Positions 1-19,149 of a stretch of DNA of 19,149 nucleotides are shown here, piece after piece; positions within the stretch are counted from its first letter, which is position 1, and every line of letters starts with the position of its first letter. The notes under the pieces were generated by a model. That model worked only from the letters and a program-made list of their open reading frames with translations. It searched no databases and was not told the origin of the DNA. The DNA is from Macrostomum lignano (taxonomy: Eukaryota): contig NIVC01005237.1 in the NCBI GenBank assembly GCA_002269645.1, forward strand, positions 1 through 19,149, given 5' to 3'. The translations under genes were made by a program, and so were the position numbers.

Positions 1-393
1 AGTCCCCATGTCACAGAGAGTGCACATGCCTGACGATTAGACAGTCAGGGCCTCTGTGCACCCTGTGTGATCGTGCGTAGTACGTTAAATAAAAATTACA
101 TGTAGATCAATTCATTTTAATGATTCTTTTGTGAAAAAAATTGAAGGCAATTCGTGTACTTATGCCGAAAATGTGTTGCATGCATACAGTTTTGAGGTGT
201 GCGATAAAGCCTGACTTGATGCGTAATTCGTGTTTCAGCATCAATTTCTTTCTTTATTATTTTGTGCTTGGATGGCTTCTGGACACTATTATAGTGCTCT
301 TGCTGACTCAGTCGGTCAAACATATCCTGTATGCATCCTTGTATGCATGTGTCAGTCAGTTTATTGGCTTATCTATAATGACTGCTGTCTGTC

Positions 394-510
394 TGTCTAC
401 CTGTCTTCAATGTCTGTCTGGTTTATTCTGTTTTCTGTAACTTTGTGTCTACCTGTCTTCAATGTCTGTCTGGTTTTATTCTGTTTTCTCTAACTTTGTG
501 TCTACCTGTC
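394..510. repeat. Tandem repeat, 52-53 bp unit, ~2.2 copies, in TCTG-rich low-complexity DNA
   Basis: TGTCTACCTGTC recurs at 394, 446 and 499, with near-identical intervening sequence. Confidence 0.85.
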
Positions 511-1123: not shown

Positions 1124-2258
1124 GTGAGGCTCCTCACAGCCGCATTCGCTCTGCTGGCGACAACCTGCTCGACAGTCACAGGCGATGACCCCGGCAGCTG
1201 CGCCAACCAGAAGCTGTTCTCTTTAGTCCTGCCCCACAGCCTGACGGTGCCGCAGTCCTTCAAGTCCGTGCAGGCAGTTGGCAGCGAGCTGCAGTGCTCT
1301 CTGCAGTGCCGGGCCCAGTCGCGGTGTCTGCTTCGGCTTCTACTGGCAAGAGGCAAGTCTGTCGTGCCAGCTGTTCAGCATCGCTGCGTTCTTCAGCAGC
1401 AAGTCGCTGTGGCAGCCGAACGACAAGCCGGTCGACGTCTTCGCGAAGCCGTTCGACTGTGAGTTTGAATGCAATGGCATAGATGATTTAAGGGAAATAT
1501 TTTGGCCTGTAATCACAGAGATTCCAAGCTCATATTCAAATATCTGTCCTTCGCTTTGGTTGCTGCAGTACCGACAGAAGCAGTTTGAATTTTCATAACT
1601 CCAGCCTGATCGCAACGTACGTGTGTGAGAGCTACCCCAGGTGCTCCCAGTCCAAAACCGCAAGTCCCATGGGTCCGTCCCACAGAGCTCCTGTCCCGCT
1701 TGTTGAATCGCCGTAAATTTTCCGCGACAAATTTCTAAGCAAGCCCCATCCCAACCCGAGCGAAGCATAAAAGGACCATAAAAGTACAACTGGAGTTTCT
1801 CATCAAAACTCGCACTTATTCCGCCAATGTCTCTGTTGCAGCGTCAGCAGAAGCCATCCTGACTGTTCAACGCTGCAGTCAGATCTCTACTCACGGGAGC
1901 GCAGCCTGTGTCGAGCAATCGATGGCAACACGAATCAGAACTTTCACGGAGGCTCCTGCACCCACACCGAAGAGCGTTTTCCATTGGTGGCAGGCCGACC
2001 TCGCTCAGCAGTCCCGCATCACGGCAGTCCGCATCTTCAACAGGCAGGACTGCTGCCGCTCAGAGGCTCAACAACTTCACCCTGCTGGTTGACGATATCG
2101 AGTGCGCCAGGGTGGACGCGGATCCGAGCTTCTCCATCAAGACGGTCAGCTGCCTCGGCTACGGCAGTCGGGTTCGCCTCGTCAGTCGCTTGCCTGGTTG
2201 GGTGTTCAGCCTGTGCGAAGTTGAGCTGCTCGGCTTCACCGTCTCTGCGCTGCCTTAG
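1124..2258 (+). pseudogene. Signal peptide + PAN/apple + F-type lectin (FTP) gene, copy A; exons ~1124-1458 and 1842-2258; frameshifted
   Basis: Hydrophobic leader RLLTAAFALLATTC. PAN-like CSLQC..CFGFYW..SCQLF. GT donor at 1459 and AG acceptor at 1841, phase 1 as in copy B. FTP motifs WWQADL, NRQDCC, SLCEVE. Relative to copy B it has indels near 1321 (+1), 1909 (-1), 1975 (-2) and 2057 (+1), and the ATG at 1122 is out of frame. Confidence 0.8.
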
Positions 2259-4787: not shown

Positions 4788-5685
4788 CTAAGGCAGCGCA
4801 GAGACGGTGAAGCCGAGAACCTCAACTTCGCACAGGCTGAACACCACATCACGCAAGCGACTGACGAGGCGAACCCGACTACCGTAGCCGAGGCAGCTGA
4901 CCGTCTTGATGGAGAAGCTCTGAGCTACGTCCACCCTGGCGCACTCGATATCGTCAACCAGCAGGGTGAAGTTGTTGAGCCTCTGAGCGCAGCAGTCCTG
5001 TCTGTTGAAGATGCGGACTGCCGTGATGCGGGACTGCTGAGTGAGGTCAGCCTGCCACCACTGGAAGTCGCCTCCGCCGGTGTGGGTGCAGGAGCCTCCG
5101 AAAAAGTTCTGATCCGTGTTACCATCGATTGCTAGACCGCAGGGTGCGCTCCAGGAAGTAGAGATCTGACTGCAGCGTTGAACAGTCAGGATGGATTCTG
5201 CTGACGCTGAAACAGCAAAAACTGCGAAATCAAAGAGACAATAGACTGTAGTTAATCCCTGGACTGCAGATTGTTTACTGCATCCCTATTGTTCTCTAAC
5301 GCGCATATTTAACAAACAGTTCCGTGTAAAACTCACAGTCAAACGGTTTCGTGAAGACGTAGACTGACTTGGCTCTCGACTTGGCGCTCGGCTGCCACAG
5401 CGACTTGCTGAAGAACGCAGCGATGCTAAACAGCTGGCACGACAGACTCGCCTCTTGCCAGTAGAAGCCGAAGCAGACACCGGACTGGGCCCTGCACTGC
5501 AGAGAGCACTGCAGCTCGCTGCCAACTGCCTGCACGGACTCGAAGGACTGCGGCACCGTCAGGCTGTGGGTCTAGGCTAAAGAGAACAGCTTCTGGTTGG
5601 CGCAGCTGCCGGGGTCATTGCCTGCGACTCCAGCGTTGGTGCTAACTAACCATGCAGAAATGACTAGAATGCCAGTATGTTTCAT
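4788..5685 (-). pseudogene. Signal peptide + PAN/apple + F-type lectin gene, copy B; exons 5685-5337 and 5206-4788 (255 codons plus stop); one in-frame TAG at 5574-5572
   Basis: ATG 5685 begins MKHTGILVISAWLV. 130-bp GT-AG phase-1 intron. Exon 2 is fully open: AIDGNTDQNFFGGSCTHT..WWQADL..NRQDCCAQRL..SLCEVEV, with the exact H-X26-R-X-D-X4-R fucose-binding motif. Premature stop in exon 1. Confidence 0.85.
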
Positions 5686-7292: not shown

Positions 7293-7298
7293 CATGTT
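7293..7298 (+). repeat. Left 6-bp target-site duplication CATGTT
   Basis: Directly abuts the left TIR; identical to 17757-17762. Confidence 0.93.
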
Positions 7299-7892
7299 AC
7301 TACTAAGGACTGGCAGATGGCTCGATTTTGCGAAGGTCCGTCGGGCTGATGTCGGCCTCTAGCACCGCGGCAAGGTGCTCCCTCGGGGTGTACCACCTCC
7401 CCCCGGGGTGTACCTCCAGCGGGGTGGGTGTCCAGCGAGTGTACCTCCAGCGGGGTGGGCCTCCCGCGAGTGTACATCCGGCCGGCTGGGCGTCCAGCGA
7501 GTGTACCTTCAGCGCATGGGCCTCCCTCGGGGTGTACATCCGGCGGGGGGATTCCCGCCCCTCCCACCAATGTCGTGTGCACGCGGTTAGTGTAGGAAGG
7601 AAACCCCCGATGCTGACGCAGCCCTGTACACTGAGCAACCGGCCCCCCATGCGGGGGACAGAGAGCAGCCCTGTAGCAGGAGGGGTAGTGCGTGGAGAGC
7701 CGCCATCCCCCTGTAGCAGGGGACAGATAACAGGCGACCCCTGTAGCAGTATGAGGTGGGGTACAAAGAGACACGGGGTGCTGGGACAGAGAGTGCGTGG
7801 AGGCACCCTGCGCTGCCCTGGCATGTCGCAGCACGCGGCGTGGACAGAGAGGGAGTGTGAGTCACACGGAGGGACAGAGAGCTCCCCCCAGG
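7299..7892 (+). repeat. Left terminal inverted repeat (~594 bp)
   Basis: Reverse complement of 17167-17756; starts ACTACTAAGGACTGGCAGATGG. Differences seen are mostly homopolymer-length changes. Confidence 0.95.
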
Positions 7893-7983
7893 GCAGTAGA
7901 GGACTTGAAAAGAAAAAACACGTATTTTAGTTGTTTCAGGTTCAGGCCATCCGGCAAACAGAGCAAAGCTCTCCAACAGTGTT

Positions 7984-8613
7984 TTATTTAGCATAAACTA
8001 CGGGGTAGCGCCCCAACACATTAGCATAGTAGCGAACAGATGCGTTCTGCAAGCAATTAACAATCAAGTAGGAGTAGGGCTCCCTAGTGGCGTCTTCGTA
8101 CATTTGAACAAAACTTTTTGGGTTAGCGGGGACAAGCTGCTTTGCAATATGGGCGACTGTACTAACGTCCCGTACATTGCGGAACAATACAAGGTAGTTT
8201 GCGTTAAGGGATTGAGTGCGGTGCTCCTTGCCCTTGGCAAACAGGTTTTGTACAAGGTACCAAAGCCGGAATCCCACATGGCTGACTTTGCGAGTGAAAA
8301 ATGCGGTAAAAGCAGCGTTTTTTTCCATGGCTTGCATTTGATCATCGACAACGAGTAGAATATTCGGAGCGGGAACATAGGTTTCAGGGTTAAATGTAGA
8401 CGAGCGAAAATTGACAGGGTACGGTAATTCAAACAGTTCCGGGTCTGGATAGTGCCCAAACCAATCAACGCGAACAGGCTTAGGGTCCTGAAAAAACTCG
8501 TTTCGCAGCAATTCTTTAACAAGAGTTGTTTTTCCGCTCTGGTTAACACCAGCAAAAATCGCCGAAGTATTTGGAGCAAACTTTAGAGCGTCAGGATCAA
8601 TTGTTTGGTACAT
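7984..8613 (-). CDS. FtsK/HerA (A32-like) genome-packaging ATPase, 209 aa from ATG 8613
   Basis: Walker A AGVNQSGKT, Walker B LLVVDD, LVQNLF and RTQSLNANYLVLFRN motifs typical of Polinton ATPases. Confidence 0.92.
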   Translation of the reverse strand: MYQTIDPDALKFAPNTSAIFAGVNQSGKTTLVKELLRNEFFQDPKPVRVDWFGHYPDPELFELPYPVNFRSSTFNPETYVPAPNILLVVDDQMQAMEKNAAFTAFFTRKVSHVGFRLWYLVQNLFAKGKEHRTQSLNANYLVLFRNVRDVSTVAHIAKQLVPANPKSFVQMYEDATREPYSYLIVNCLQNASVRYYANVLGRYPVVYAK

Positions 8614-8647
8614 TTTCAGGGCGAGTTGACACTCCAAATATTAAAAA

Positions 8648-9084
8648 CTATTTTATTTGTAGAACATGTTTTCGAACCATCAAATCATTTTCAAGCAGAT
8701 TGGTAGAGTAACATTCCCTTAAAATCTTTTCAATCGACAACCCCTCTAAAAAGTGCTTTTCGGCCACAAAAATCACATGCGGCCCACACGCTACACTTAG
8801 AGGGTGTTGAACAGGGTGGCGATTCATAGCAACAGGTGAATGTACATGCTTCGAGATCCAAGCCGAGAGCAATTCCGGCACGGGTTCAATACACAGGGGT
8901 CAAAAAATGTCACACTCTTATCATCGTGTAGGCAAATCAGTCCCCAGTGGGTGCCTGGCAGATTACCCGTGTCAAAATTAATTACATATGCAGCAGGGTA
9001 AACAGGTGCAGGAATTCTGTCGAGAGGGCAAACGTGCACTTCCACAGGTAGTTTTAAACGCTCCAAAATTTCCAACGTGTTCAT
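8648..9084 (-). CDS. Adenain-like cysteine maturation protease, ~145 aa, split by one missing base near 8882-8899
   Basis: Catalytic set GTHW (His), FFDP (Asp), VQHP (Gln), VACG (Cys) is spread over ORFs 8824-9084 and 8648-8881. Adding one C to a C-run joins them. Confidence 0.88.
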
Positions 9085-10363
9085 ACGTAGTCCAGAATGG
9101 GCTGGCGGCCTCTAGTGATTTGCACCGCGTTGTCAAAGTAACCAAACACCAAAACGTTAATCCCGGCAGGTAGGGCTGCAGAAAACTTTATCTGTAGGGT
9201 CAGATTCCCTCTCTCGCGAGGCATGCTATGTCCACCCAGTTCCATGTCGGGCATTAGATTCCACGCAAATAAGCAGTAACCGGCGCGATAATCCGAATAT
9301 GACAGGTCAATGTCCAAATCGCGATTCATTTTCCCTAGGCTCTTAAACAGCATGGCGTATTCGCGAGCATAGTTTTGGGCAGCGAACCTTGGAGTGAATG
9401 GTTGACCGCACAGACTGACACCGTCCTTGTACAGGGCCACACTGTCCGCCCCAAATGGCTCGAAATTGAACGGATTATGGGTGGCCACCCCGTTATATGC
9501 GGCACTATTGACCATCCCATAATGACAAGTTTAGGCTTCTGCTCCGGGAAAATATTATTGATTGACACGTCGCGAACTCCTACAGCGACAGAGGTGTTGT
9601 GTACAACGAGGCGCTCGATGGGGTAGACTGCATTCTGAGTCGCCAGCTGTTCTTCAATCTCCAAGGCCAGTTGGGGGTTAGCCTTTACCCGACGAACGTG
9701 TAATTTTGCACTTTGAAGAACCAACTTTGCATCAACCCCTTCGGCGTGATTCTCTACAACGAATCCCGAATTTTGCAGAGTGAGCGTAACCACCATATCA
9801 GTGTAGGGTAGCAGCATACGATCGTTGGTGACAAAAAAGTCGAGACTAAGAGGGCCATACAGGTGAAATGTTCGAGAACCGGCAGCCATCGCCTTGCGAG
9901 TTACAAAGCCAGGATTTCCAACCGCAGCCATTTGACCCCCAGCGTCTTTAGCGTAGCCCATCATCCGCAGTTGGTTAGACTTTGAATCAGACCCATAACT
10001 CAAGCATGTACGAATGTACGCCTTGTAGGCGTGGTTGTTGTTGCTAGACTCGATATGTGTACCATTTATGGAAAGAGACACGTTTTTGAACATGGTCTCC
10101 AAGAGGTAATTGATTGGCGCCACGTTTGAATCCGCCGCCAAATCGGCTCCATTAGCTCTTTTAATACAACCTTTAATCTCGAGATCAATGTCATTAAGAT
10201 CGACAAACGTCTCGCCGCCCACAATTCTAAACTCAACCACACTCGCATTTTCGACGCTGGCAACCGGGTGGATTTCTTCAGTAGTTGAACCTACAGCGGC
10301 AATCTGGTGGGCTCGAGGGGCAAAGAGCTCAAACTCGGACTTTGTACACAGACACTCGGACAT
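9081..10363 (-). CDS. Major capsid protein (double jelly-roll, Polinton type), ~427 aa, split by one missing G at 9516-9518
   Basis: MSECLCTKSEFELF start, VEFRI, DLNDIDL, NNNHAYKAY, AYNG..NPFNF, GYCLFAWNL, GNLTLQIKF and DNAVQI match Polinton capsid motifs. ORFs 9335-10363 and 9081-9515 join at MG/MVN. Confidence 0.9.
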
Positions 10364-10392
10364 GTTTAGTAGACAGACTCGATTCGGCGAAT

Positions 10393-10737
10393 CTAATTGA
10401 AGCGGGGCTTTTTATTTATAGTGCTGAAAATGTCTGAATTGAGACGCTTCGGAGCCTTTTTTCTTCTTCGTCCGCTACCCCTTTGGGTAACCGTGTCTTT
10501 AAAGGCGTCCTTGGCAGCCTGAACAGAATTGCGCAGGACAGACTCCTTCAAATTGCCTCCTTGCTCGAGGCTATCGTTAACAGTAGTTGCTAGGGCTCTA
10601 GTACCATGACGGAGAACGTTTTTACCAAAACTCTTTAGAATTGGCAGCGCGAAGCGGGCAATGCTTCCAAACAAACCGTTGCCCCTCTGGGCGCCCGCGA
10701 AAACAGGCAAAGCTCCACCAATCAGAATAGAAGGCAT
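10393..10737 (-). CDS. Small basic virion protein with amphipathic helix (pVI/cupiennin-like core protein), 114 aa
   Basis: QRGNGLFGSIARFALPILKSFGKNVLRHG, a second QRGSG, and an Arg/Lys tail. Lies between penton and major capsid as in adintoviruses. Confidence 0.7.
   Translation of the reverse strand: MPSILIGGALPVFAGAQRGNGLFGSIARFALPILKSFGKNVLRHGTRALATTVNDSLEQGGNLKESVLRNSVQAAKDAFKDTVTQRGSGRRRKKAPKRLNSDIFSTINKKPRFN
10413..10420 (-). promoter_or_regulatory. TATAAATA motif upstream of the major capsid gene
   Basis: 49 nt before ATG 10363; extends to AATAAA. Confidence 0.65.
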
Positions 10738-10777
10738 GATTAAGCACTAGGATATAGTTTACTGAGGCTGTGCTGTT

Positions 10778-10785
10778 TATTTATA
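10778..10785 (-). promoter_or_regulatory. TATAAATA motif upstream of the pVI-like gene
   Basis: 40 nt before ATG 10737; contains the penton stop codon and AATAAA. Confidence 0.65.
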
Positions 10786-11911
10786 GCTTCTTTTCGCGGA
10801 TGTTAACGCTCAAGACGGTCTTGCCCCTCATTACTTTTGTCATATCCCTGCCCATATCATCGTTAATTTGTACTTCAATAGTTTTGAATGGGTGCTTAAC
10901 CAGCGGTAGATATGCCGGATTGACAAACTCGTAGTACTCGCGACCGCCCTGAACTTTGGGATCCATCGGTATAGCTCCCAACAGAGGAACTTTAACGTCT
11001 CCTACAATAACAGAATCGACTATGCTCGAATAGATGTACATTGTTTGTATTCCACCGGTTAATTCCATTGATGCGTTTGCGTAGAAATCCGATATACCGA
11101 AAAATGGGGTTGTATAATCATGCTCTGGGAAACCAAGCACGCTGGTCAAGCGCCCCAACCCAAACATGTAATCCACCGAGCCGATGTAATAACACCTATT
11201 CGTAACTTCGCTGTATCCGAAAAAGTCCTTTCTAGGTGCTGGAGCCGCTATGAGATCTTTGATCCGTTTCCAAATTAAATCGTTGAGTTCCTCCACCAAT
11301 CTTTTAGGTGTACTATAGTATCCACCCTGCATAAAATAGATTTGATCAGACGCTGCGCTAGTAACTTGTCTTATTATTGGAGCGTGGTCCATTGACTGTA
11401 CAGTCGGTTCCTCAACAACTGCGGTGATGGAGGCTGCACACCCCGCGTGTAATACGAGTTCAGTAGGTAGATCCTCATTAGACTCGAAGCCGGCGACTAG
11501 TTTAAACACCTTGGGTAGGGCATCCGGGAATTTGATGCCGACGGTGGATTTTGAAGTATTCACAATCATAAAGGCGGTTGGGGATGTTCTTAAAAAGACA
11601 ATTTTCTTATTATCCCCTTCAACGTATCGGATACCGTTTAGAAAGCCGGAAATACATTCTTCAGGGGTTTTCAGACCCGCTGCGAGACAAAGGCTTGCAA
11701 ACGACGAAGCCGTCAAGAGGCCCTCCTGTTCGCGAATGGTGATCGGTATAGATTTTTTGAAAGATTCAAATTCTTTGGTAAAGTAGATCCGTTCGAGGCA
11801 AACCTCATGATTCGGAAAGTGGAGAGTGTCCGGTAAATTAATAAAATAATGAGCCGGATTATTTTCGGGATAGTGCTCGGGGCACGCATTGCTAGGCAGA
11901 AAGAGATGCAT
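10781..11911 (-). CDS. Minor capsid protein (penton), 376 aa from ATG 11911
   Basis: HLFLPSN..YPENNPAHYFINLP, GGYYST..LVEELN, YIYSSIV..VIVGDVKVPLL and IEVQINDDMG match Polinton penton blocks. Strong Kozak context GCTACCATG. Confidence 0.88.
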   Translation of the reverse strand: MHLFLPSNACPEHYPENNPAHYFINLPDTLHFPNHEVCLERIYFTKEFESFKKSIPITIREQEGLLTASSFASLCLAAGLKTPEECISGFLNGIRYVEGDNKKIVFLRTSPTAFMIVNTSKSTVGIKFPDALPKVFKLVAGFESNEDLPTELVLHAGCAASITAVVEEPTVQSMDHAPIIRQVTSAASDQIYFMQGGYYSTPKRLVEELNDLIWKRIKDLIAAPAPRKDFFGYSEVTNRCYYIGSVDYMFGLGRLTSVLGFPEHDYTTPFFGISDFYANASMELTGGIQTMYIYSSIVDSVIVGDVKVPLLGAIPMDPKVQGGREYYEFVNPAYLPLVKHPFKTIEVQINDDMGRDMTKVMRGKTVLSVNIREKKL

Positions 11912-11923
11912 GGTAGCCACGCA

Positions 11924-13003
11924 TTAGTTATTATTACGTTGACGTATATTTATAACTTCATTTACAGGTACAAATGAATTAAAAGTGTCGGGATAACCGC
12001 GCCAGCTAACGTAATGGTGCGCAACACCATTTATTAACACGTTTCTACGCAAAACTTTATTGATTACAAAACGCTCGGGTCGGGTAGATTTGGACAGTTC
12101 ATTGTAGTAAAACCGTCCCTCAATCACTTCACCAGACAAATCAGAAATACGATAAAAATGTGGGGGTCCAGGGCAAACTTTGGATATAATGTACACCTCC
12201 TCACTATACATGTCGTATGCCTCCTTGTCGAATGCCCTGCGAGATTTCGAAATTCTCACAAAATCCCCCTTTTTATATACGGGGTCGTCTTTTTGCTGAT
12301 CCGGGTAGAGCTTTTCCCACACACGCTTCTGATTGTGGAACCCTACACTTGACGGTTTCATCTCAATAGTAGAATGCGTCGTGTTGTTGTAATTGCCTAT
12401 CAAATTAGGTAAGTAGTCAACCCAACGCCACGTGTTGTTGTGCTCAAAGTAGCGAGCCAGACGCTTTCGAAGAGTTCTAATCAGCCTCTCGGCCATGTTT
12501 GCCTTGTACACAGAGTTGGTGCTGTACATTTTAACATTATTGTCTTTTAGTATGCGGCGCATTCGCTGATTATAAAACTCGGTACCCCGATCCACGTGAA
12601 GGTAAAGGGGGCGGGCAGGGAAATCATTCGCCAACATTGACTCAAACGCTGCGGGGGTATCACTCTTTAGTTTAATTGCCCTACAAAAAGCCTGCTTACT
12701 AAGCACATCAATAATAACTAGTATATATTTATGTCCGTCATTCCAACGTTTGTATCGCGACATGTCCATCAAATCGGCTTGTAGAGTTTCCATGAATCCT
12801 CCCGACATTACTTTTCCCGTTTTAAATGTCCTGTTGACTCTCCGGTGACGGGTGTAACTCGGTTGGGTTTCTAGCCATTCCCTGGTTTGGCGTCTTGTCA
12901 GGTTTGGCGCCAGACGTTTGGCCTCCTGATAGACACGGGCAGCATTTGAAAAAGCGGCGGCTCCTTGTTCGTAAACTCGACGAAGAGCGGTTAGAGCCCT
13001 CAT
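11924..13003 (-). CDS. Retroviral-like (RVE, DDE) integrase with C-terminal chromodomain, 359 aa from ATG 13003
   Basis: QADLMD (D), HVDRGTEF (D), AERLIRT (E), YNNTTHSTI, and chromodomain-like YVSWRGYPDTFNSFVP. Confidence 0.95.
   Translation of the reverse strand: MRALTALRRVYEQGAAAFSNAARVYQEAKRLAPNLTRRQTREWLETQPSYTRHRRVNRTFKTGKVMSGGFMETLQADLMDMSRYKRWNDGHKYILVIIDVLSKQAFCRAIKLKSDTPAAFESMLANDFPARPLYLHVDRGTEFYNQRMRRILKDNNVKMYSTNSVYKANMAERLIRTLRKRLARYFEHNNTWRWVDYLPNLIGNYNNTTHSTIEMKPSSVGFHNQKRVWEKLYPDQQKDDPVYKKGDFVRISKSRRAFDKEAYDMYSEEVYIISKVCPGPPHFYRISDLSGEVIEGRFYYNELSKSTRPERFVINKVLRRNVLINGVAHHYVSWRGYPDTFNSFVPVNEVINIRQRNNN
11947..11954 (-). promoter_or_regulatory. TATAAATA motif upstream of the penton gene, inside the integrase 3' end
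   Basis: 35 nt before ATG 11911. Confidence 0.65.
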
Positions 13004-13100
13004 TGACAACAAGTGTGGATGCACAGCATGAATAGTTGCACGTAATGTCGGCTGGGGAGTTGTCTACACAAAGCTTTGACGCGGCTGCTGCTGCGCCCAT
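12822..13100 (-). CDS. Small MG-start, Cys-rich ORF (92 aa) upstream of and overlapping the integrase in another frame
   Basis: First ATG after the TATAAATA at 13137-13144; Kozak G-3/G+4; sequence MGAAAAASKLC..YSCC..KCCPCLSGG. Confidence 0.45.
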   Translation of the reverse strand: MGAAAAASKLCVDNSPADITCNYSCCASTLVVNEGSNRSSSSLRTRSRRFFKCCPCLSGGQTSGAKPDKTPNQGMARNPTELHPSPESQQDI

Positions 13101-13135
13101 GACCGCCGGCGCGCGGTTATGTTTGGACTAGGGTT

Positions 13136-13762
13136 CTATTTATAAAGAGTCACGTATTTTTTCTTTTTCTCGGGTGGTCTTAGTTGGTAATCGTGATATT
13201 TACCCACCCCGGTACCTCGATCGACAAGTTTGGGCATAGCATTTACACCTTTGTTGCGCGTGGTCGTTAAATCGCGGGTGTCTGTCGCAATTGTGTGCTC
13301 ATATTCATCGCGGTAATCGTCGGTACCAACCATATGGTCAACCTTCTTTTCCTCCACAGGGAGCTGTTTCCGACCGAGCATAGACATTGGTATACGGGCC
13401 TTGTCTAGCAGAGCCCAGAAAGCGGTTGAATATTTCGGGTGATTATTAGTGTTGGTGGTGACGGCTTGTAGAAGATCAAAAACGTTGCTGCCACCCCAAG
13501 TTTCACCATCAAAAACGACTTCCCACGATTGGTTGTAATTTAGGCTGGGGTGCTTTTCTGTTAGTATATTCCATATACGTTGTTGCCTATCAGAAAATAG
13601 CTGCTTTGTCGTCTTTTGGGGTTTTACTTTAGCCAATTGGGTCTGTAGCTTTGCATTGTACTCTACAAGTTTTTCGTACTCCGATTTTGGGGCAATTTCT
13701 CGCGGAGTACCCTGTCTAAGCTGATTGAATTCCTCCTCGGGGACCACAACGTACTTGTCCAT
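13136..13762 (-). CDS. Conserved Polinton hypothetical protein, 208 aa from ATG 13762
   Basis: WEVVFDGETWGGSNVFDLL resembles a block seen in an uncharacterised Polinton/adintovirus core gene; basic C-terminus. Confidence 0.6.
   Translation of the reverse strand: MDKYVVVPEEEFNQLRQGTPREIAPKSEYEKLVEYNAKLQTQLAKVKPQKTTKQLFSDRQQRIWNILTEKHPSLNYNQSWEVVFDGETWGGSNVFDLLQAVTTNTNNHPKYSTAFWALLDKARIPMSMLGRKQLPVEEKKVDHMVGTDDYRDEYEHTIATDTRDLTTTRNKGVNAMPKLVDRGTGVGKYHDYQLRPPEKKKKYVTLYK
13137..13144 (-). promoter_or_regulatory. TATAAATA motif upstream of the MG-uORF/integrase
   Basis: 36 nt before ATG 13100; overlaps the stop codon of the upstream ORF. Confidence 0.65.
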
Positions 13763-13764
13763 TT

Positions 13765-14127
13765 TCAACGTCGTTGTCCTAGCAGACCACCAAACAGTCC
13801 AGTGATTAACGGTGCAGCAATCTTGGCGAGAATTGGTAGGAATCCTCCAACTTGAGGGTCCGATAGTATCATATTCTTCTTCCTATTTATAGACAGTTTT
13901 TTGTCGGCCATGTCATGCAGGGCTTCTCTATAACGTTTCAACCTTGCAAACTGTCTAGGGGATAGATCGATATTGCCCTTGAGTACATTGTGGCTTAACT
14001 CGCACAGACACTGCATCAACTCATTATCGGCTCCCCTAATAATGGCCCTCCTTCGATGTGGTCGCGCGTCACCGAGCTCCTCTAGCTCGCGACGGCAAGA
14101 ACAAAGACGAGAAATTCCGTTTGTCAT
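13765..14127 (-). CDS. Adenovirus pX-like virion protein with C-terminal amphipathic peptide, 120 aa (alternative starts 14145 or 14154)
   Basis: LMQCLCELSHNVLKGNIDLS..LKRY block and QVGG|FLPILAKIAAPLITGLFG, which resembles adenoviral pX GG|(F/I)LP. Confidence 0.75.
   Translation of the reverse strand: MTNGISRLCSCRRELEELGDARPHRRRAIIRGADNELMQCLCELSHNVLKGNIDLSPRQFARLKRYREALHDMADKKLSINRKKNMILSDPQVGGFLPILAKIAAPLITGLFGGLLGQRR
13884..13891 (-). promoter_or_regulatory. TATAAATA motif inside the pX-like ORF, upstream of the 13762 gene
   Basis: Exact 8-mer; 121 nt before ATG 13762, longer than the other copies. Confidence 0.45.
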
Positions 14128-14172
14128 TATTAAGGTGGTAAGCATTGCGTGCATACATGTGCATATTTTGTT

Positions 14173-14180
14173 TATTTATA
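14173..14180 (-). promoter_or_regulatory. TATAAATA motif upstream of the pX-like gene
   Basis: Intergenic; 45 nt before ATG 14127; extends to AATAAA. Confidence 0.65.
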
Positions 14181-14192
14181 AGCAAAGCATAA

Positions 14193-14711
14193 TTAGAGTT
14201 GCAGAATAGCAGTCACGTGGTCGTACATTTTACACAGTTCGTCATAGTTTCGTATTCCTAGGAACACTAACCGACCATTCTTTCCGCACAGCAGGCACTT
14301 GGCCTTGCGGAATGGGGACTTTATTACAAGCCCATTGAATACCTCACTCTCCCACTCAACCCAGCGCGAGCTCGAGTTGGCAAGGCGGAAAAAGTTTGGC
14401 TTAACATTAACTTCTGCACGATAAGTACCGGTAGTGATAACAACAGAGTTTGGTTTACATTGAGCAAAAAGACGCAGCACATCGTTGGTTGATTGGCAAC
14501 CAAAAACAATGGCAGATAATGAACGTTTGAAAAAGTTTATTGTACACTTTCCGATCCTCAGGTTGTACAATGCCCGGGGTCTATGAAACGTTCTAGCGCG
14601 CGCCCAGTCCAAGTTCGGTAGGTGGTTCCACCTTGCGCAAAACACCCTGTTTACGCACACGACGTTCTGCAAGCGGTTTTTTCGGTTGCTTTTGTTTCCG
14701 CTCAGCTCCAC
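14193..14711 (-). CDS. TATA-binding-protein (TBP)-like protein, ~160-aa two-repeat core; no in-frame AUG
   Basis: By-eye match to the eukaryotic TBP core: LQNVV~LQNIV, TINFFKRSLSAIVFGCQS~TALIFSSGKMVCTGAKS, WESEVFNGLVIK~YEPELFPGLIYR, NGRLVFLGIR~SGKVVLTGAK, ELCKMYDHVTAIL~EIYEAFENIYPIL. Order and spacing are preserved. Confidence 0.75.
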   Translation of the reverse strand: MELSGNKSNRKNRLQNVVCVNRVFCARWNHLPNLDWARARTFHRPRALYNLRIGKCTINFFKRSLSAIVFGCQSTNDVLRLFAQCKPNSVVITTGTYRAEVNVKPNFFRLANSSSRWVEWESEVFNGLVIKSPFRKAKCLLCGKNGRLVFLGIRNYDELCKMYDHVTAILQL

Positions 14712-15273
14712 CAGCTCCGCGCTTGCGTCCTACCTTGATTTTTAACGGTGGAATCCAGTAGCAGCGGTCAAACGCCTGCTTGGGAGCTTCTATGAATTGC
14801 AGTTGTTGAATTTTCGGCACCGCGGTTAGAACCGAGTCGTGAATCACCGCCGTGTCTAGGGCGAACAGTACTCTATAGTAGCCCGTCTTGTTCTTGTAGT
14901 CGGTGCACAACTTGCCGCTCTTGTCGTACATTTTAAAGTCGTGAGCCAATCCGAATGCAGCGCTGTCGCAGCCAAAAGTGGGGTTGTACCCCAATAGCGC
15001 CATTCCTTGGATAGAGAGCTGGTGACACACGGAATTGAACGCTTCTGGTATGCAGCTCTCCAAGTGCTTTTGGGAAAGAATGATGAATTCGCGGCCTTCA
15101 TTGTCGGTTCTCACACCCTTGACAATCAGTACGGGCGTCGCATTGGCAAGATAGAGAGGGCCCTGTTCGTCGTACTCAATGTCGTACGTCTCGGTTCCGT
15201 TGTAGCTTGGACCTCTCGACTTGAGAGAGAATAGGTCGATCCTAACACTATTGTAGTCTTGAACGGTATCCAT
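14593..15273 (-). CDS. Putative OB-fold ssDNA-binding protein with basic NLS-like tail, 226 aa from ATG 15273
   Basis: FKMYDKSG..YYRVLFALDTAVI..AVPKIQQLQF resembles the C-terminal strands of viral SSB (DUF2738/T7 gp2.5-like) families; tail KVGRKR..KQKQPKK. Weak by-eye assignment. Confidence 0.4.
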   Translation of the reverse strand: MDTVQDYNSVRIDLFSLKSRGPSYNGTETYDIEYDEQGPLYLANATPVLIVKGVRTDNEGREFIILSQKHLESCIPEAFNSVCHQLSIQGMALLGYNPTFGCDSAAFGLAHDFKMYDKSGKLCTDYKNKTGYYRVLFALDTAVIHDSVLTAVPKIQQLQFIEAPKQAFDRCYWIPPLKIKVGRKRGAGGAERKQKQPKKPLAERRVRKQGVLRKVEPPTELGLGAR

Positions 15274-15317
15274 GTTGCTGCTGCTGCTGAGAGTGGGTCT
15301 CGCTCCTGAGCGCCTCC

Positions 15318-15325
15318 TTATATAC
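15318..15325 (-). promoter_or_regulatory. TATA box (GTATATAA) upstream of the SSB-like/TBP-like unit
   Basis: Intergenic, 44 nt before ATG 15273; differs from the TATAAATA of the other genes. Confidence 0.55.
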
Positions 15326-15361
15326 CCTTGGCGCGGAGGGTGGGGTGGCTGGGCGTTTTTG

Positions 15362-15877
15362 TTATAGTCCTTCTTTAACGACACTTTCCGGTGTTGGAAA
15401 TCCGGAAAAAATAAACCTTTTGTTTCGATCTTCTGGTCGAGGGGTTTGAGGCGTGTCGTGAATGCAGCTGCAGTGAGGGTTGATAGTCAACTTCGCTAGC
15501 ACTGGTCTACTGTGTTTAGGTCGCCAAATCCTTTGGTGTTCCGTCCACGAGGGAGCAATCGGCTGGTGATTCCGGTACCGTATTTTCTCACGATGATCCT
15601 CTTGTAATATTGGGGCAATTATCTGCTCCATTCTTTGAAGATTGGCTTTGAAATGCATCTTGTCTCTAAAGTAGTAGTCAATTCGGGCATCTGTATATTC
15701 TTGGGTGCTGTAAGGCCCTTGCCCAATTTCGTCTACCTCGACATTAAAGGTGACTAATCGTTCGGGAATTGGTTTGCCGTGACAAATGCATAACCAGTCT
15801 GTGGACTTTTTCAGGGTCTCGTACTCTGCCCTTTCTTTGCTCGATAAAAGCGGGTAGTCTCGAGAAATCCAGCTCAT
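15362..15877 (-). CDS. Orphan hypothetical protein, 171 aa
   Basis: ATG-started ORF that fills the gap; ATGA overlap with the upstream stop; no recognised motif. Confidence 0.65.
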   Translation of the reverse strand: MSWISRDYPLLSSKERAEYETLKKSTDWLCICHGKPIPERLVTFNVEVDEIGQGPYSTQEYTDARIDYYFRDKMHFKANLQRMEQIIAPILQEDHREKIRYRNHQPIAPSWTEHQRIWRPKHSRPVLAKLTINPHCSCIHDTPQTPRPEDRNKRFIFSGFPTPESVVKEGL

Positions 15878-16227
15878 TCCTCTGACTCGTCAGATTCGTC
15901 GAGAAAGAAATAGTGGAAGAAATTGTCGACTCTATTCTTTTCAACTGCACAAAGTATTTTGTCTGACAGGTGAAATTCGCAGTCTCCTTTTACGTACAGG
16001 CGCTTCCCGTCGATAACTTTGATAGATGCGCCGCCTCCGAGATCGTAATCTGTGCAGCTAGTGCCCAGAAATTTCATTCGATGCCATTGTGCTCGACTAA
16101 ACACGGCTCCTGGACAGCTACAGTTTTGACAGTGGATGCGGAAACGCGGCTTGTTTGGGTCCCAATATCCCACTTCCAGCACTGCGTTGTCAACGTGGGT
16201 GTACACTATTTCCGATTGCCAGTACAT
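15874..16227 (-). CDS. PC4 (transcriptional coactivator p15/ssDNA-binding)-like protein, 117 aa from ATG 16227
   Basis: EVGYW..RFRIH..GAVFSRAQWHRMK resembles PC4 GISL..EQW..LK; YDLGGGASIKV may be a second degenerate repeat; acidic tail. Confidence 0.4.
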   Translation of the reverse strand: MYWQSEIVYTHVDNAVLEVGYWDPNKPRFRIHCQNCSCPGAVFSRAQWHRMKFLGTSCTDYDLGGGASIKVIDGKRLYVKGDCEFHLSDKILCAVEKNRVDNFFHYFFLDESDESEE

Positions 16228-16258
16228 TTCGATATTGTTGAGAAATACCAATTTTATT

Positions 16259-16266
16259 TATTTATA
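16259..16266 (-). promoter_or_regulatory. TATAAATA motif upstream of the PC4-like gene
   Basis: 31 nt before ATG 16227; contains the Fic stop codon and AATAAA. Confidence 0.65.
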
Positions 16267-17040
16267 GGCTGCCGTCTGAACAGATTTCCAACCATTCCCT
16301 CCACTGTAGAACGGTTCTCTCAATTGATAAAAGTAAATACGCCGCTAGGAGCCCCCGGTTGCTGCTGCGCGCTTCGTAAAGACAGTTGAGATATGTGTCT
16401 CTATTTGCATACGCAAATGATACGGGTTCTGGCAGAATCCGGTTGATCAACTTTGATAATAACAACCTAGCAGTTCTACCATTGCCGTCGCTAAAGGGGT
16501 GTATGGTGAGAAACTTTTCTAGGAAATATGCTCCTGTCACTACTGCATCACGCAAGATTTGTGGCTCTTTTATGTCTCTAGTTAATTTTACCAGCTGCCG
16601 TTCAATATTTTCTGGGGCACTGTAATACATACTCGCGCCTGCTGGCTTGGCGTGCTTAATTCTATACGATCCTGCATTCGGGAGCAGTCCTCTGCACACG
16701 CGTGTGTGAACTTGTCTAACAAACTCTGTGTCAATTAACCCCCTCGTGTCATTGAGGTGTATTGCCGCACTCCATAGATTGGCTGTGACCATACAGGACC
16801 GGTTTTTATCGCTTCTTCTGCTTCCTCCCAAGTCAACGCCACCTCTCTCTCCTCAATGTTTACTTCAGTTACGAATGCCAGCCGGGCTAGATACGTGAAT
16901 TCTAAGCGCTCCTTTGCGGTCAATCCCTCGATTCTTTTCCTAGTGTCTGATAACAATCTTTCAATGAGGGGTAATCTGGCGCGCACGCTCTCGTTGCTGA
17001 AATAGGGGTTATCAGTTATACCCTCTTCCATGTTCTCCAT
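16262..17040 (-). CDS. Fic/Fido-domain protein (putative AMP-transferase), ~259 aa, split by one missing A at 16803-16807
   Basis: Complete signature HPFSDGNGRTAR, plus VHTRV..GSYR. The N-terminal half (NIEEREVALTWEEAEEAIK, resembling AIEGNTLT..ET) lies in the overlapping ORF 16735-17058. Confidence 0.9.
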
Positions 17041-17166
17041 ACAGAGGGTTTTGTACACTGCTTCTATTTATGGTTGCATTAACACGTTGCTCGCGGCCTG
17101 TCTGTCCCTCTGCAGCCTGGGGGGCTCTCTATCACTCACCGCCGGTCTGTCCCTCTACCACCCCGG

Positions 17167-17756
17167 CCTGGGGAAGCTCTCTGTCCCTCCGTGTGACTCA
17201 CACTCCCTCTCTGTCCACGCCGCGTGCTGCGACATGCCGGGCAGCGCAGGGTGCCTCCACGCACTCTCTGTCCCAGCACCCCGTGTCTCTTTGTACCCCA
17301 CCTCATACTGCTACAGGGGCCGCCTGTTATCTGTCCCTGCTACAGGGGGATGGCGGCTCTCCACGCACTACCCCTCCTGCTACAGGGGCTGCTCTCTGTC
17401 CCCCGCATGGGGGGCCGGTTGCTCAGTGTACAGGGCTGCGTCAGCATCGGGGGTTTCCTTCCTACACTAACCGCGTGCACACGACATTGGTGGGAGGGGC
17501 GGGAATCCCCCCGCCGGATGTACACCCCGAGGGAGGCCCATGCGCTGAAGGTACACTCGCTGGACGCCCAGCCGGCCGGATGTACACTCGCGGAGGCCCA
17601 CCCCGCTGGAGGTACACTCGCTGGACACCCACCCCGCTGGAGGTACACCCCGGGGGAGGTGGTACACCCCGAGGGAGCACCTTGCCGCGGTGCTAGAGGC
17701 CGACATCAGCCCGACGGACCTTCGCAAAATCGAGCCATCTGCCAGTCCTTAGTAGT
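17167..17756 (-). repeat. Right terminal inverted repeat (~590 bp)
   Basis: Ends CCAGTCCTTAGTAGT; reverse complement of 7299-7892. Confidence 0.95.
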
Positions 17757-17762
17757 CATGTT
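17757..17762 (+). repeat. Right 6-bp target-site duplication CATGTT
   Basis: Identical to 7293-7298. Confidence 0.93.
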
Positions 17763-18549
17763 TTAGGACTCGGAAAAGTCTTCCGGTCCAGATGCTAGGC
17801 TAGAGAAGTCCATGTCTAAAAAACTCAATTACGCTCGTATTTCTGGCTTTCAATCACATAGACAAAACAACAAACGTATATTTAACACAAGTGTGAATGC
17901 ATAGCCCGTCAATTATAGTTAATACAGTGACAGATAGAATTAATTAATTACAAGACCTTAAGTATTATAAATTACAAGTATAACTATCAAAGCTACAGTT
18001 GGCAAACATCGGCTAACGAACAGCTGTACTTACGCTCGTATATTTCAAATGTTTGTTCTGTTACTGCAAAGGCTACTGTGCTACTGTTTGATGGAGTAAT
18101 CGCCGAAGCATCTTCCGAACTGTTCGATAGTGTACTTAGCAAAAGTATCCAGCTTGGTCATTCAGAACTTCCAAGCTCATCTCATTCGATATGTCCTGGT
18201 AAATAATTGGAGTCCGCGACATTTTAGCTCAAAACTTGTACCTCTTTTATAGCACAGAGACAAAAATTCGACAAAAATTGATGCTTTCATTTGGAATACA
18301 AGGAAGTCGTCCCTATGATATTAAAATTCATGCAGAAATGATTAGGAAAACAATCGTCAAACACAACAAAGCCTGAAACCAAACATCTACTTCATTTTAA
18401 AACAGTAAAAGTCAGGACGATAGACAATGTTTCAGTTATCTTCAGACGTTTAACAAATGTCACTGTACTTTATTAGTGCAGGTTTTTTTCCGGTTTAATC
18501 TGGTTTTGCATATTAGCGATGCGGAAAAAGCTCCATTTAGATCGGACTT

Positions 18550-18651
18550 CTAAGGCAGCACAGAAGCGGGGAAGCCGAGCACCTCGTCTTCGCACAGGCT
18601 GAAAGCCACACCAGCAAGCGACTGATGAGGCGAACCCGACTGCCGTAGCCG
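18550..18651 (-). pseudogene. Truncated third copy: 3' end of the F-type lectin exon
   Basis: Aligns to 4788-4890 (GYGSRVRL..FSLCE..LGF..LP*) with substitutions and an indel. Similarity stops abruptly at ~18651. Confidence 0.85.
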
Positions 18652-18968
18652 ACGCAAGTATTCACTGACAAAGCCTGCTTAAAAAATACGTGACAGTGGA
18701 CTACAATACTATATAATGATATATGTAGTATTGTATGATACTATATAATGAGTCAGTTTTTAGACTCAAATTCTCCTCTAGCTTTAAAAACTGCTAAAAC
18801 TTCTGCACCACTCCTGAGTGCTACTCCGTTGAGCTGCCTATAGGAAAGCAGGGTCGCAACATGCACAGCGCGCCTCTCCTGCCATTACCATGATCAATAG
18901 GCCGCAGCCCTCCTCTCCAATTTGATTGTCAGAAGCAAATGGCATTCTTATTGCAGCAACTTTGGCAT

Positions 18969-19149
18969 CCCTGGTGCTGGCGCCCTGGTGCTGGGGCCCT
19001 GGTGCTGGCGCCCTGGTGCTGGCCCCTGGTGCTGGCGCCCCTGGTGCTGGCGCCCCTGGTGCTGGCGCCCCTGGTGCTGGCGCCCCTGGTGCTGGCGCCC
19101 CTGGTGCTAAAGGGCCCTGGTGCTAAAGGCCCTGGTGCTAAAGCCCCTG
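18969..19149. repeat. GC-rich minisatellite, 14-15 bp unit (C)CCCTGGTGCTGGCG, ~12 copies, running off the window
   Basis: Direct tandem copies; the last units vary (CCCTGGTGCTAAAGG). Confidence 0.95.

What the first reader, a model, noticed from the sequence alone, without database searches (positions are those of the whole stretch)
7299..17756. Complete virion and integration modules but no DNA polymerase or helicase: a helper-dependent (satellite) Polinton-like virus
Seen: both TIRs and the TSD are intact and the interior is tiled almost without gaps by ORFs, leaving no room or remnant for pPolB, primase or helicase. Established: canonical Polintons are ~15-20 kb and are defined by pPolB plus integrase. 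Inference: the polymerase slot holds a Fic/PC4/orphan/SSB/TBP block instead. The element would then depend on a pPolB supplied in trans (helper Polinton or co-infecting virus), on host replication, or on excision and packaging without amplification. The ACT-ACT terminal repeat fits slide-back protein priming and favours a helper.
Basis: partly seen in the sequence, partly recalled or inferred. Interest (0 to 1): 0.8.

Follow-up and report, generated by a model that had tools for sequence, protein, structure and literature searches.

The report
Polymerase-less integrated Polinton-type virus
A small virus sitting in an animal's chromosome has genes for its shell and for inserting itself but none for copying its DNA, so it probably borrows that enzyme from a related virus, although it could also be a shortened copy of an ordinary one.

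Summary
A 10,458-bp element is bounded by ~590-bp inverted repeats (98.7% alike) and a 6-bp target duplication. About 93% of the interior is coding, the largest gap is 132 nt, and no polymerase, primase or helicase was found. The integrase (rve plus chromodomain) is whole. The virion module is not 'complete' as read: the major capsid gene is frameshifted, and the protease and Fic genes probably are (decay or read error).

Additions: the 226-aa ORF folds as a T7-gp2.5/ASFV-CP312R-type ssDNA-binding protein. A TBP-like frame overlaps its tail. TATAAATA occurs 7 times on the coding strand (0.15 expected). The ends read ACTACT…AGTAGT, not the usual AGTAGT…ACTACT. The PC4 label was not verified.

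Best reading (0.42): a nuclear, non-autonomous Polinton lineage copied by a relative's protein-primed polymerase. A clean deletion derivative (0.30) is not excluded: no full sister element or host assembly could be examined, and no helper was seen. Polymerase-less polinton-like viruses are known in protists. My searches found no described animal, integrase-bearing case with no replicase, and two nematode surveys I read required pPolB, so they would miss one.

The parts
7293..7298 (.). Left target-site duplication, CATGTT
   Evidence: Identical to 17757-17762
7299..7892 (.). Left TIR; starts ACTACT; 66% GC; holds a ~31-bp repeat array (GTGTAC x6) and further short repeats (GGACAGA x5, CCCTGTA x4)
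7984..8613 (-). Packaging ATPase (209 aa, Walker A/B-like motifs); AATAAA overlaps the stop
   Evidence: Weak P-loop hits only; motif positions; family label recalled
8648..8899 (-). Adenain-like protease, C-terminal piece (Q...C motif)
   Evidence: Frame; no library hit; label from recalled motif
8824..9084 (-). Adenain-like protease, N-terminal piece (H and D motifs); in a different frame from the C-piece
   Evidence: label recalled, no library hit
9081..9551 (-). Major capsid protein, C-terminal piece
   Evidence: 80-82% identical to residues 272-427 of P0005-P0007
9515..10363 (-). Major capsid protein, N-terminal piece; frameshift lies within 9515-9551
   Evidence: 76-79% identical to residues 1-283 of P0005-P0007. 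Capsid identity rests on recalled motifs and gene order; no Pfam or PDB hit
10393..10737 (-). Small basic protein with an amphipathic stretch (probable virion membrane-active/core protein)
   Evidence: Homologue in the same position before the capsid gene in L001 (E 6e-5); functional label recalled
10781..11911 (-). Probable minor capsid protein (376 aa)
   Evidence: Weak match to the syntenic L001 ORF (E 0.002); label from gene order and recall
11924..13003 (-). rve integrase with C-terminal chromodomain, open and with D-D-E motifs
   Evidence: Pfam rve 1.7e-9; HP1 chromodomain 7.8e-5; motif positions
13136..13762 (-). Uncharacterised 208-aa ORF
   Evidence: no convincing family
13765..14154 (-). 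129-aa ORF ending in a pX-like GGF segment (probable virion core protein)
   Evidence: label recalled; pX-like ends described in PMC8502044
14193..14729 (-). TBP-like open frame; 5' part overlaps the SSB tail; start codon unresolved
   Evidence: Pfam TBP 9.5e-5; 22 of 23 PDB hits contain TBP; only the C-terminal repeat is matched
14593..15273 (-). Viral-type single-stranded DNA-binding protein (T7 gp2.5 / ASFV CP312R / giant-virus OB fold)
   Evidence: Model pLDDT 61.7, core mostly 70-81; Foldseek E 1.8e-4 to CP312R; Z 11.7, rmsd 3.8, 157 aligned to CP312R and Z 9.4, rmsd 3.2, 125 aligned to gp2.5; giant-virus proteins E 5e-12
15362..15877 (-). 171-aa ORF with an RVxF-like motif; lead for a GADD34/DP71L-type PP1 recruiter
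   Evidence: Atlas row at 0.89, PF10488 on 41% of members; motif at residue 40; no Pfam or PDB confirmation
15874..16227 (-).
   Evidence: No homologue; model pLDDT 39.6; no fold match at Z>=5; also present in sister-copy protein P0010
16262..16852 (-). Fic domain with complete HPFxDGNGRxxR motif
   Evidence: Pfam Fic 3e-14
16735..17040 (-). 101-aa ORF, probably the N-terminal part of the Fic gene in another frame
   Evidence: Overlaps the Fic frame; assignment is inference
10413..16266 (-). Seven TATAAATA boxes, starting at 16266, 14180, 13891, 13144, 11954, 10785 and 10420
   Evidence: 7 observed vs 0.15 expected, 0 of 300 simulated sequences reach 7; 0 on the other strand; 5 of 7 lie 26-57 nt above an ATG
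17167..17756 (.). Right TIR; ends AGTAGT
17757..17762 (.). Right target-site duplication, CATGTT

Best explanation
A compact, non-autonomous member of the animal Polinton/adintovirus lineage that persists as a satellite of a related Polinton. SHOWN: an integrated copy with TIRs and a 6-bp duplication, an open integrase, virion genes, a viral-type SSB fold, a TBP-like frame, repeated TATA boxes, and no replicase. INFERRED: the genes are transcribed by host RNA polymerase II in the nucleus, with the TBP-like protein boosting or redirecting use of the TATAAATA promoters. The element is released as linear DNA. A terminal protein and protein-primed polymerase from a co-resident or co-infecting Polinton that accepts ACTACT ends start synthesis by slide-back. 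The element's own SSB coats the displaced strand, whose TIRs re-form an origin. The copies are re-integrated by its integrase or packaged by its ATPase into its own capsid. This copy is either slightly decayed or carries read errors.
For: No room or trace of a replicase. No visible scar: gene junctions are tight, several carry TATAAATA or AATAAA, and the genes next to each TIR keep such signals. GC is 0.44-0.52 in all 15 coding segments. The SSB fold implies copying through displaced single strands rather than cut-and-paste. Distant intact relatives exist for the SSB (4 proteins at 46-56%; P0011 at 54% and P0013 at 36%) and for the capsid (3 at 76-79%). The SSB relatives conserve the tail that overlaps the TBP-like frame, so the pair looks old. 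Sister-copy protein P0010 has the same order. Near-identical TIRs and an exact TSD indicate recent insertion. Terminal repeats serve jumping-back priming (PMC8097293). The terminal protein is part of pPolB in Polintons (PMC11161782), so both must come in trans.
Against: No helper was seen. No related locus could be read whole: the only fetched locus, L001, is 4.4 kb and 25% identical. The relatives' proteins come without gene neighbourhoods, so they may sit in pPolB-bearing elements. The repeated TATAAATA boxes could themselves allow a scarless deletion of a polymerase gene. Accessory genes normally lie upstream of PolB in adintoviruses (PMC8502044), so the block need not replace it. The capsid gene is broken here, as expected of a decaying derivative, and P0010 carries an internal duplication. 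A 10.5-kb genome is far below the constrained ~17 kb of vertebrate Mavericks. The ACTACT ends differ from the common AGTAGT type, so an ordinary Polinton may not serve as helper.
Confidence: 0.42

Rival explanations
1. An ordinary internal-deletion derivative: an autonomous ~14-16 kb Polinton of this host lost its pPolB gene cleanly and was moved, perhaps a few times, by its intact parent. It is helper-dependent in the trivial sense but is not a lineage.
For: Most vertebrate Maverick copies are degraded (PMC8097293), and partial copies are common in C. elegans (PMC11414722). One shown and two probable frameshifts here. Every Polinton hallmark tested other than pPolB is present. Repeated junction motifs offer microhomology.
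Against: No truncated gene or orphan promoter was seen at any junction, and the largest gap is 132 nt. 5 of 6 TIR gaps lie in homopolymer runs of 3 or more, against only 2 substitutions, which points to read error rather than decay. No in-frame stop interrupts the capsid pieces relative to intact relatives.
Confidence: 0.3
2. A virophage-like parasite of a large DNA virus of the host, replicated by that virus's polymerase and primase-helicase; its SSB, TBP-like protein and TATAAATA boxes tap the large virus's machinery.
For: The SSB's nearest structural matches are ASFV CP312R and giant-virus proteins. A PP1-recruiter lead of the DP71L kind. PLVs were found in entomopoxvirus occlusion bodies (10.1101/2023.10.16.562556), and some algal PLVs depend on giant viruses.
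Against: Those insect PLVs each encode PolB or a primase-helicase. TATA boxes 26-57 nt above ATGs plus AATAAA near stops fit host polymerase II. Slide-back-type ends have no role for a primase-driven fork. A shared fold does not show a donor.
Confidence: 0.14
3. No viral helper: the element is excised by its integrase and amplified by host polymerases (TIR panhandle, own SSB), or moves by cut-and-paste with optional packaging.
For: Intact integrase and exact TSD. Mriyaviruses lack a polymerase, are thought to use the host's, and gamadviruses encode a T7-like SSB (PMC11253617). Many protist EVEs lack a detectable polymerase (PMC10120064).
Against: Mriyaviruses keep an HUH initiator and nearly all a helicase; none was found here. 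Host polymerases cannot finish open linear ends unaided (established knowledge). No significant TIR self-folding (z 1.27).
Confidence: 0.11
4. Mis-assembly that collapsed two copies and dropped the polymerase.
For: Homopolymer-type differences between the TIRs suggest an error-prone assembly.
Against: Both flanks carry the same 6-bp duplication, and a collapse would have to join exactly between genes.
Confidence: 0.03

Closest known systems
Polintons/Mavericks = adintoviruses (Polintoviricetes), probably Beta/Group 1-type virion module
   Same: TIRs, 6-bp TSD, repeated terminal triplet, rve integrase with chromodomain, ATPase, protease, major and minor capsid genes, pX-like and amphipathic small proteins. 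Beta/Group 1 placement is recalled resemblance, not a tree.
   Different: No pPolB, which defines the family; 10.5 kb against 13-25 kb; ACTACT instead of AGTAGT ends; a T7/giant-virus-type SSB, which I did not find mentioned for Polintons in the passages searched.
Group 2 Maverick-Polintons, Tlr1 and meldviruses with replaced replicases
   Same: Polinton-type virion genes without pPolB; Tlr1 keeps the rve integrase.
   Different: They swap pPolB for a helicase or primase-helicase; here nothing replaces it.
Zephyrvirus subgroup VC40 and polymerase-less protist EVEs
   Same: No detectable replication genes (10.64898/2026.06.19.733378; PMC10120064).
   Different: VC40 has a Nucleocytoviricota-like capsid lineage, 15-20 kb, and no consistently annotated rve integrase or protease; the EVEs are in protists and often keep a helicase.
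Entomopoxvirus-associated PLVs and virophages (mavirus, Gezel-14T)
   Same: Small capsid-encoding elements thought or shown to depend on another virus.
   Different: The four insect elements each encode PolB or a primase-helicase, and mavirus has pPolB; the helper is a cytoplasmic large virus.
Mriyaviruses (Gamadviridae)
   Same: No DNA polymerase; T7-like SSB; probably nuclear.
   Different: 35-45 kb, with HUH initiator and helicase; different capsid lineage.
Non-autonomous Polinton derivatives
   Different: As recalled, these are short and largely non-coding, whereas this element keeps about 14 genes including virion and integrase modules.

Membership tests
Polinton/Maverick (adintovirus) | Protein-primed family B polymerase | tested here: not met
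   Largest non-coding gap 132 nt; no hit in 134 of 134 frames scanned
Polinton/Maverick (adintovirus) | rve integrase with C-terminal chromodomain | tested here: met
Polinton/Maverick (adintovirus) | TIRs of 100-1500 bp and 5-8 bp TSD | tested here: met
   ~590 bp and 6 bp; ranges from PMC10748475
Polinton/Maverick (adintovirus) | Short repeated end motif (AGTAGT, AGAGAG or AC-type) | tested here: inconclusive
   A repeated triplet is present but reads ACTACT//AGTAGT; not among the three types listed in PMC8097293, though an AC-starting type is
Polinton/Maverick (adintovirus) | [quoted passage not shown] | tested here: inconclusive
   Conserved 427-440 aa family and gene order, but no Pfam or PDB hit and not folded; label recalled; gene frameshifted here
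Polinton/Maverick (adintovirus) | Packaging ATPase, cysteine protease, minor capsid protein | tested here: inconclusive
   Motifs present; library hits weak or absent
Polinton/Maverick (adintovirus) | Length 13-25 kb | tested here: not met
   10,458 bp; range
PLV / Group 2 or Tlr1 type with replaced replicase | SF1/SF3 helicase, primase-polymerase or PolA in place of pPolB | tested here: not met
   No unassigned ORF above 208 aa; no such hit
Satellite virus / virophage | Replicates only with a helper virus | not testable with these tools
   No host assembly, helper sequence or infection data
Satellite virus / virophage | Own capsid and free particles | not testable with these tools
   Capsid genes present, major capsid gene broken in this sequence
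T7 gp2.5 / CP312R-type SSB (14593-15273) | OB fold of the phage/giant-virus SSB type | tested here: met
   DNA binding itself not shown
TBP (14193-14729) | Two-repeat TBP saddle | tested here: inconclusive
   C-terminal repeat matched just under Pfam's cut-off (22.6 vs 22.9 bits); N-terminal repeat only by eye; start unresolved
PC4 (15874-16227) | PC4 fold | tested here: inconclusive
   Low-confidence model; no Z>=5 match; no Pfam hit
GADD34/ICP34.5/DP71L (15362-15877) | RVxF motif plus downstream eIF2-alpha-binding segment | tested here: inconclusive
   RVxF-like at residue 40; partial fit by eye to the motif quoted in PMC5346070; Atlas lead 0.89; no Pfam hit

The most novel reading that the evidence does not exclude
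A long-lived clade of ~10-kb integrating animal viruses that has dropped every replicase, keeps a giant-virus-type SSB overlapped with its own TBP-like factor and a private TATAAATA promoter code, uses a distinct ACTACT origin, and lives as a capsid-encoding satellite of other Polintons. It would be a nuclear 'virophage of a Polinton', invisible to surveys that require pPolB.
Probability: 0.4. Interest if true: 0.82.

Novelty: new variant of a known kind. Interest (0 to 1): 0.6.

Why it matters
Polintons are defined as self-synthesising. A lineage that keeps capsid and integrase but no replicase would show that they have satellites, and that pPolB and its terminal-protein domain can act in trans. 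It would give a natural test of protein-primed replication, which is inferred from sequence for Polintons. Two nematode surveys required pPolB near the integrase, so such elements would have been discarded and may be undercounted. The SSB, the TBP-like frame and the TATAAATA boxes are testable on their own and bear on how these viruses copy and transcribe their DNA in the nucleus. If it is a single deletion copy, the value falls to these accessory genes and the new end motif.

Tried and rejected
Seeking whole related loci: the one GTDB scan returned 1 locus from 54 pattern matches, a 4.4-kb contig with a 25%-identical capsid gene and no replication region. Phage records gave no match for the SSB or the capsid relative. 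Three of the 7 profile hits for the SSB (P0014-P0016) are repetitive proteins and were dropped as spurious; P0010 was left out of the folding alignment as a chimeric model. PC4 identity: no homologue, poor model, no fold match, so neither shown nor excluded. A stand-alone terminal protein among the small ORFs was considered: the 226-aa ORF is an SSB, the others gave no sign, and the 171- and 208-aa ORFs were not folded. The Atlas gave nothing for the SSB. The actin-related hit for the 171-aa ORF (E 0.09) and the DotU hit for the 208-aa ORF were rejected as weak. No TIR self-folding signal; no Rfam match. No compositional seam between modules. A recalled guess that the host is a flatworm was not confirmed (one search found nothing relevant); the host is only inferred to be an animal. 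Literature searches for a described animal element with integrase and capsid but no replicase found none. The library lacks most subscription papers, and the supplementary genome maps of 10.1101/2024.03.25.586562 were not seen and could contain such elements.


Full report
Boundaries. The element runs from 7299 to 17756 (10,458 bp, 49% GC). The arms 7299-7892 and 17167-17756 align over 595 columns at 98.7%, with 2 mismatches and 6 one-base gaps. CATGTT lies directly outside both ends; a chance match has probability about 2.6e-4. This is a real, recent, integrase-type insertion. The left flank holds a duplicated gene with an F5/8 type C domain, from which I infer an animal host; the host was not identified. 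The ends read 5'-ACTACT...AGTAGT-3'. The commonest vertebrate Maverick ends are 5'-(AGT)2//(ACT)2-3', with (AG)3 and a rare (AC)3A type also known (PMC8097293, passages). The motif here is therefore a variant, though still a repeated triplet suited to jumping-back priming.

No replicase. All assigned genes lie on the minus strand. The 14 ATG ORFs I mapped cover 8069 of 9280 interior bases. With the protease C-piece and the TBP-like frame coverage is 8645 of 9280, and the largest gap is 132 nt. I scanned the 134 stop-to-stop frames of 40 aa or more (of 310 of 20 aa or more) against Pfam: 5 hit at E<=0.01 (rve, Fic, TBP, two DUFs) and none was a polymerase, primase or helicase. The scan is not very sensitive for this group, since it also missed the capsid, ATPase and protease. 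The stronger argument is size: no unassigned ORF exceeds 208 aa.

Virion and integration genes. The integrase is open, hits Pfam rve, has its D-D-E motifs and ends in a chromodomain, the adintovirus hallmark given in 10.1101/2024.03.25.586562 (passages and section 16). The presumed major capsid gene has three intact 427-aa relatives at 76-79% and two at 31-34% (5 of 3083 candidates). Against them the window's gene is in two frames, with the break within 9515-9551. The protease and Fic genes are probably split likewise (motif inference). So 'complete' is not true of this sequence. Five of the 6 TIR gaps lie in homopolymer runs of 3 or more, against 2 substitutions, which suggests read error, but decay is not excluded. 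The capsid, penton, protease and ATPase labels rest on recalled motifs and on gene order, shared with L001 for penton, small basic protein and capsid. No library confirmed them.

Accessory block. The 226-aa ORF has 4 relatives at 46-56% (of 604 candidates). A profile search gave 7 hits, of which I kept P0011-P0013 for the alignment, set aside the chimeric P0010 and dropped 3 repetitive proteins. The model (pLDDT 61.7; four other models 37-51; tail disordered) matches ASFV CP312R (Z 11.7, rmsd 3.8, 157 aligned), T7 gp2.5 (Z 9.4, rmsd 3.2, 125 aligned) and the Enc34 SSB, and many giant-virus proteins (128 matches at E<=0.001). It is a viral-type SSB by fold; binding is not shown. The frame 14193-14729 is TBP-like; only the second repeat is matched statistically and its start is unresolved. 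Its 5' part overlaps the SSB tail, and that tail is conserved in the relatives beyond a variable linker, which I read as an old overlapping gene pair (inference). Fic is confirmed. The 171-aa 'orphan' has an RVxF-like motif and an Atlas lead to the PP1-binding family (0.89, PF10488 on 41% of members). It partly fits the GADD34/DP71L motif quoted in PMC5346070 (passages); this is a lead only. PC4 could not be verified.

Promoters. TATAAATA occurs 7 times on the coding strand and never on the other, against 0.15 expected; 0 of 300 simulated sequences reached 7. Five of the 7 lie 26-57 nt above an ATG and two at 129 and 141 nt. Variants precede the Fic, SSB and ATPase genes, and AATAAA lies at or near several stops. 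This fits host polymerase II transcription in the nucleus better than a cytoplasmic virus factory (inference), and gives the TBP-like protein a plausible target.

Is it a lineage? P0010 is an apparently spliced gene model that joins a TIR-derived frame (88% over 26 aa), the 117-aa ORF (90% over 61 aa) and an SSB nearly identical to the window's but with a 38-aa internal duplication. So at least one other copy, or another assembly of the locus, has the same order; it gives no distances. Intact distant relatives show that the genes are old, but I could not see their neighbourhoods: the single genome scan gave 1 short, distant locus from 54 pattern matches. Against a plain deletion: no scar and uniform composition. 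For it: repeated junction motifs could allow a clean deletion, accessory genes normally sit upstream of PolB (PMC8502044, section 8), and the genome is well below the usual size.

Mechanism. In Polintons the terminal protein is a domain of pPolB (PMC11161782, passages), so both would have to come in trans. I favour a related Polinton acting in the nucleus on ACTACT ends, with the element's SSB coating the displaced strand, and its integrase and capsid handling insertion and spread (0.42). Rivals are a clean deletion derivative (0.30), a parasite of a large DNA virus (0.14), host-driven copying or cut-and-paste (0.11) and mis-assembly (0.03). Only the anatomy is shown; every replication step is inferred.

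Comparison with what is known. Loss of pPolB is common in polinton-like viruses but usually comes with a helicase or primase in its place (10.64898/2026.06.19.733378, passages and section 5; PMC8502044, passages and sections 7, 8, 10; 10.1101/2023.10.16.562556, parts 1-2 of 4). Elements with no detectable replication gene or polymerase are reported in another capsid lineage (VC40) and among protist EVEs (PMC10120064, passages). Mriyaviruses lack a polymerase but keep an HUH initiator and nearly all a helicase (PMC11253617, passages). My searches (listings only) found no described animal element with rve integrase, virion genes and no replicase. Passages of the coral paper (10.1101/2023.10.06.561300) and a review (PMC6431247) added nothing, and the one supplement file of PMC8502044 held none of six accessory-gene terms. 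Two nematode surveys required pPolB by design (PMC10748475 and PMC11414722, passages). Subscription papers, repeat databases and preprint supplements were not seen. The element fails the pPolB criterion, so I do not file it as a Polinton proper; it is a Polinton-lineage variant.

Verdict. Dependence on an outside polymerase is necessary; whether this marks a satellite lineage or one clean deletion is undecided. Novelty: new variant of a known kind. Interest 0.6; 0.82 if the lineage reading holds.

Noticed in passing
window 1174-2258 and 4788-5629; partial third copy 18550-18656: Inverted duplication (89-92% identical) of a host gene region containing an F5/8 type C (galactose-binding) domain; a short third copy lies on the other side of the element.
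   Followed up: partly
window 14593-14729: The SSB tail and the start of the TBP-like frame overlap in different frames, and no ATG opens the TBP-like frame; splicing, a non-ATG start or recoding are all possible.
   Followed up: partly
window 7400-7548 and 17509-17660: A ~31-bp repeat array inside each TIR (GTGTAC x6), followed by two other short repeats; candidate binding sites for replication or packaging proteins.
   Followed up: partly
window 15362-15877: Possible GADD34/DP71L-type PP1 recruiter, which would counter host translation shut-off and suggests a real infection cycle.
   Followed up: partly
window 7299-7304 and 17751-17756: End motif ACTACT//AGTAGT, not among the three vertebrate Maverick end types listed in PMC8097293.
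   Followed up: partly
window 18969-19143: GC-rich 15-bp tandem repeat at the window's right edge.
   Followed up: no
window 386-510 and 2852-2899: A 53-bp duplication with 25-bp subrepeats, and a (CT)24 microsatellite, in host DNA.
   Followed up: no
L001:1971-4403: A Polinton-type penton, small basic protein and capsid gene cluster on a 4.4-kb contig filed in an archaeal MAG; probably eukaryotic-virus contamination of the bin.
   Followed up: partly
window 7303-7994 and 17030-17766: Long open frames in the GC-rich TIRs; no family hit, probably a by-product of composition, though one appears in gene model P0010.
   Followed up: partly
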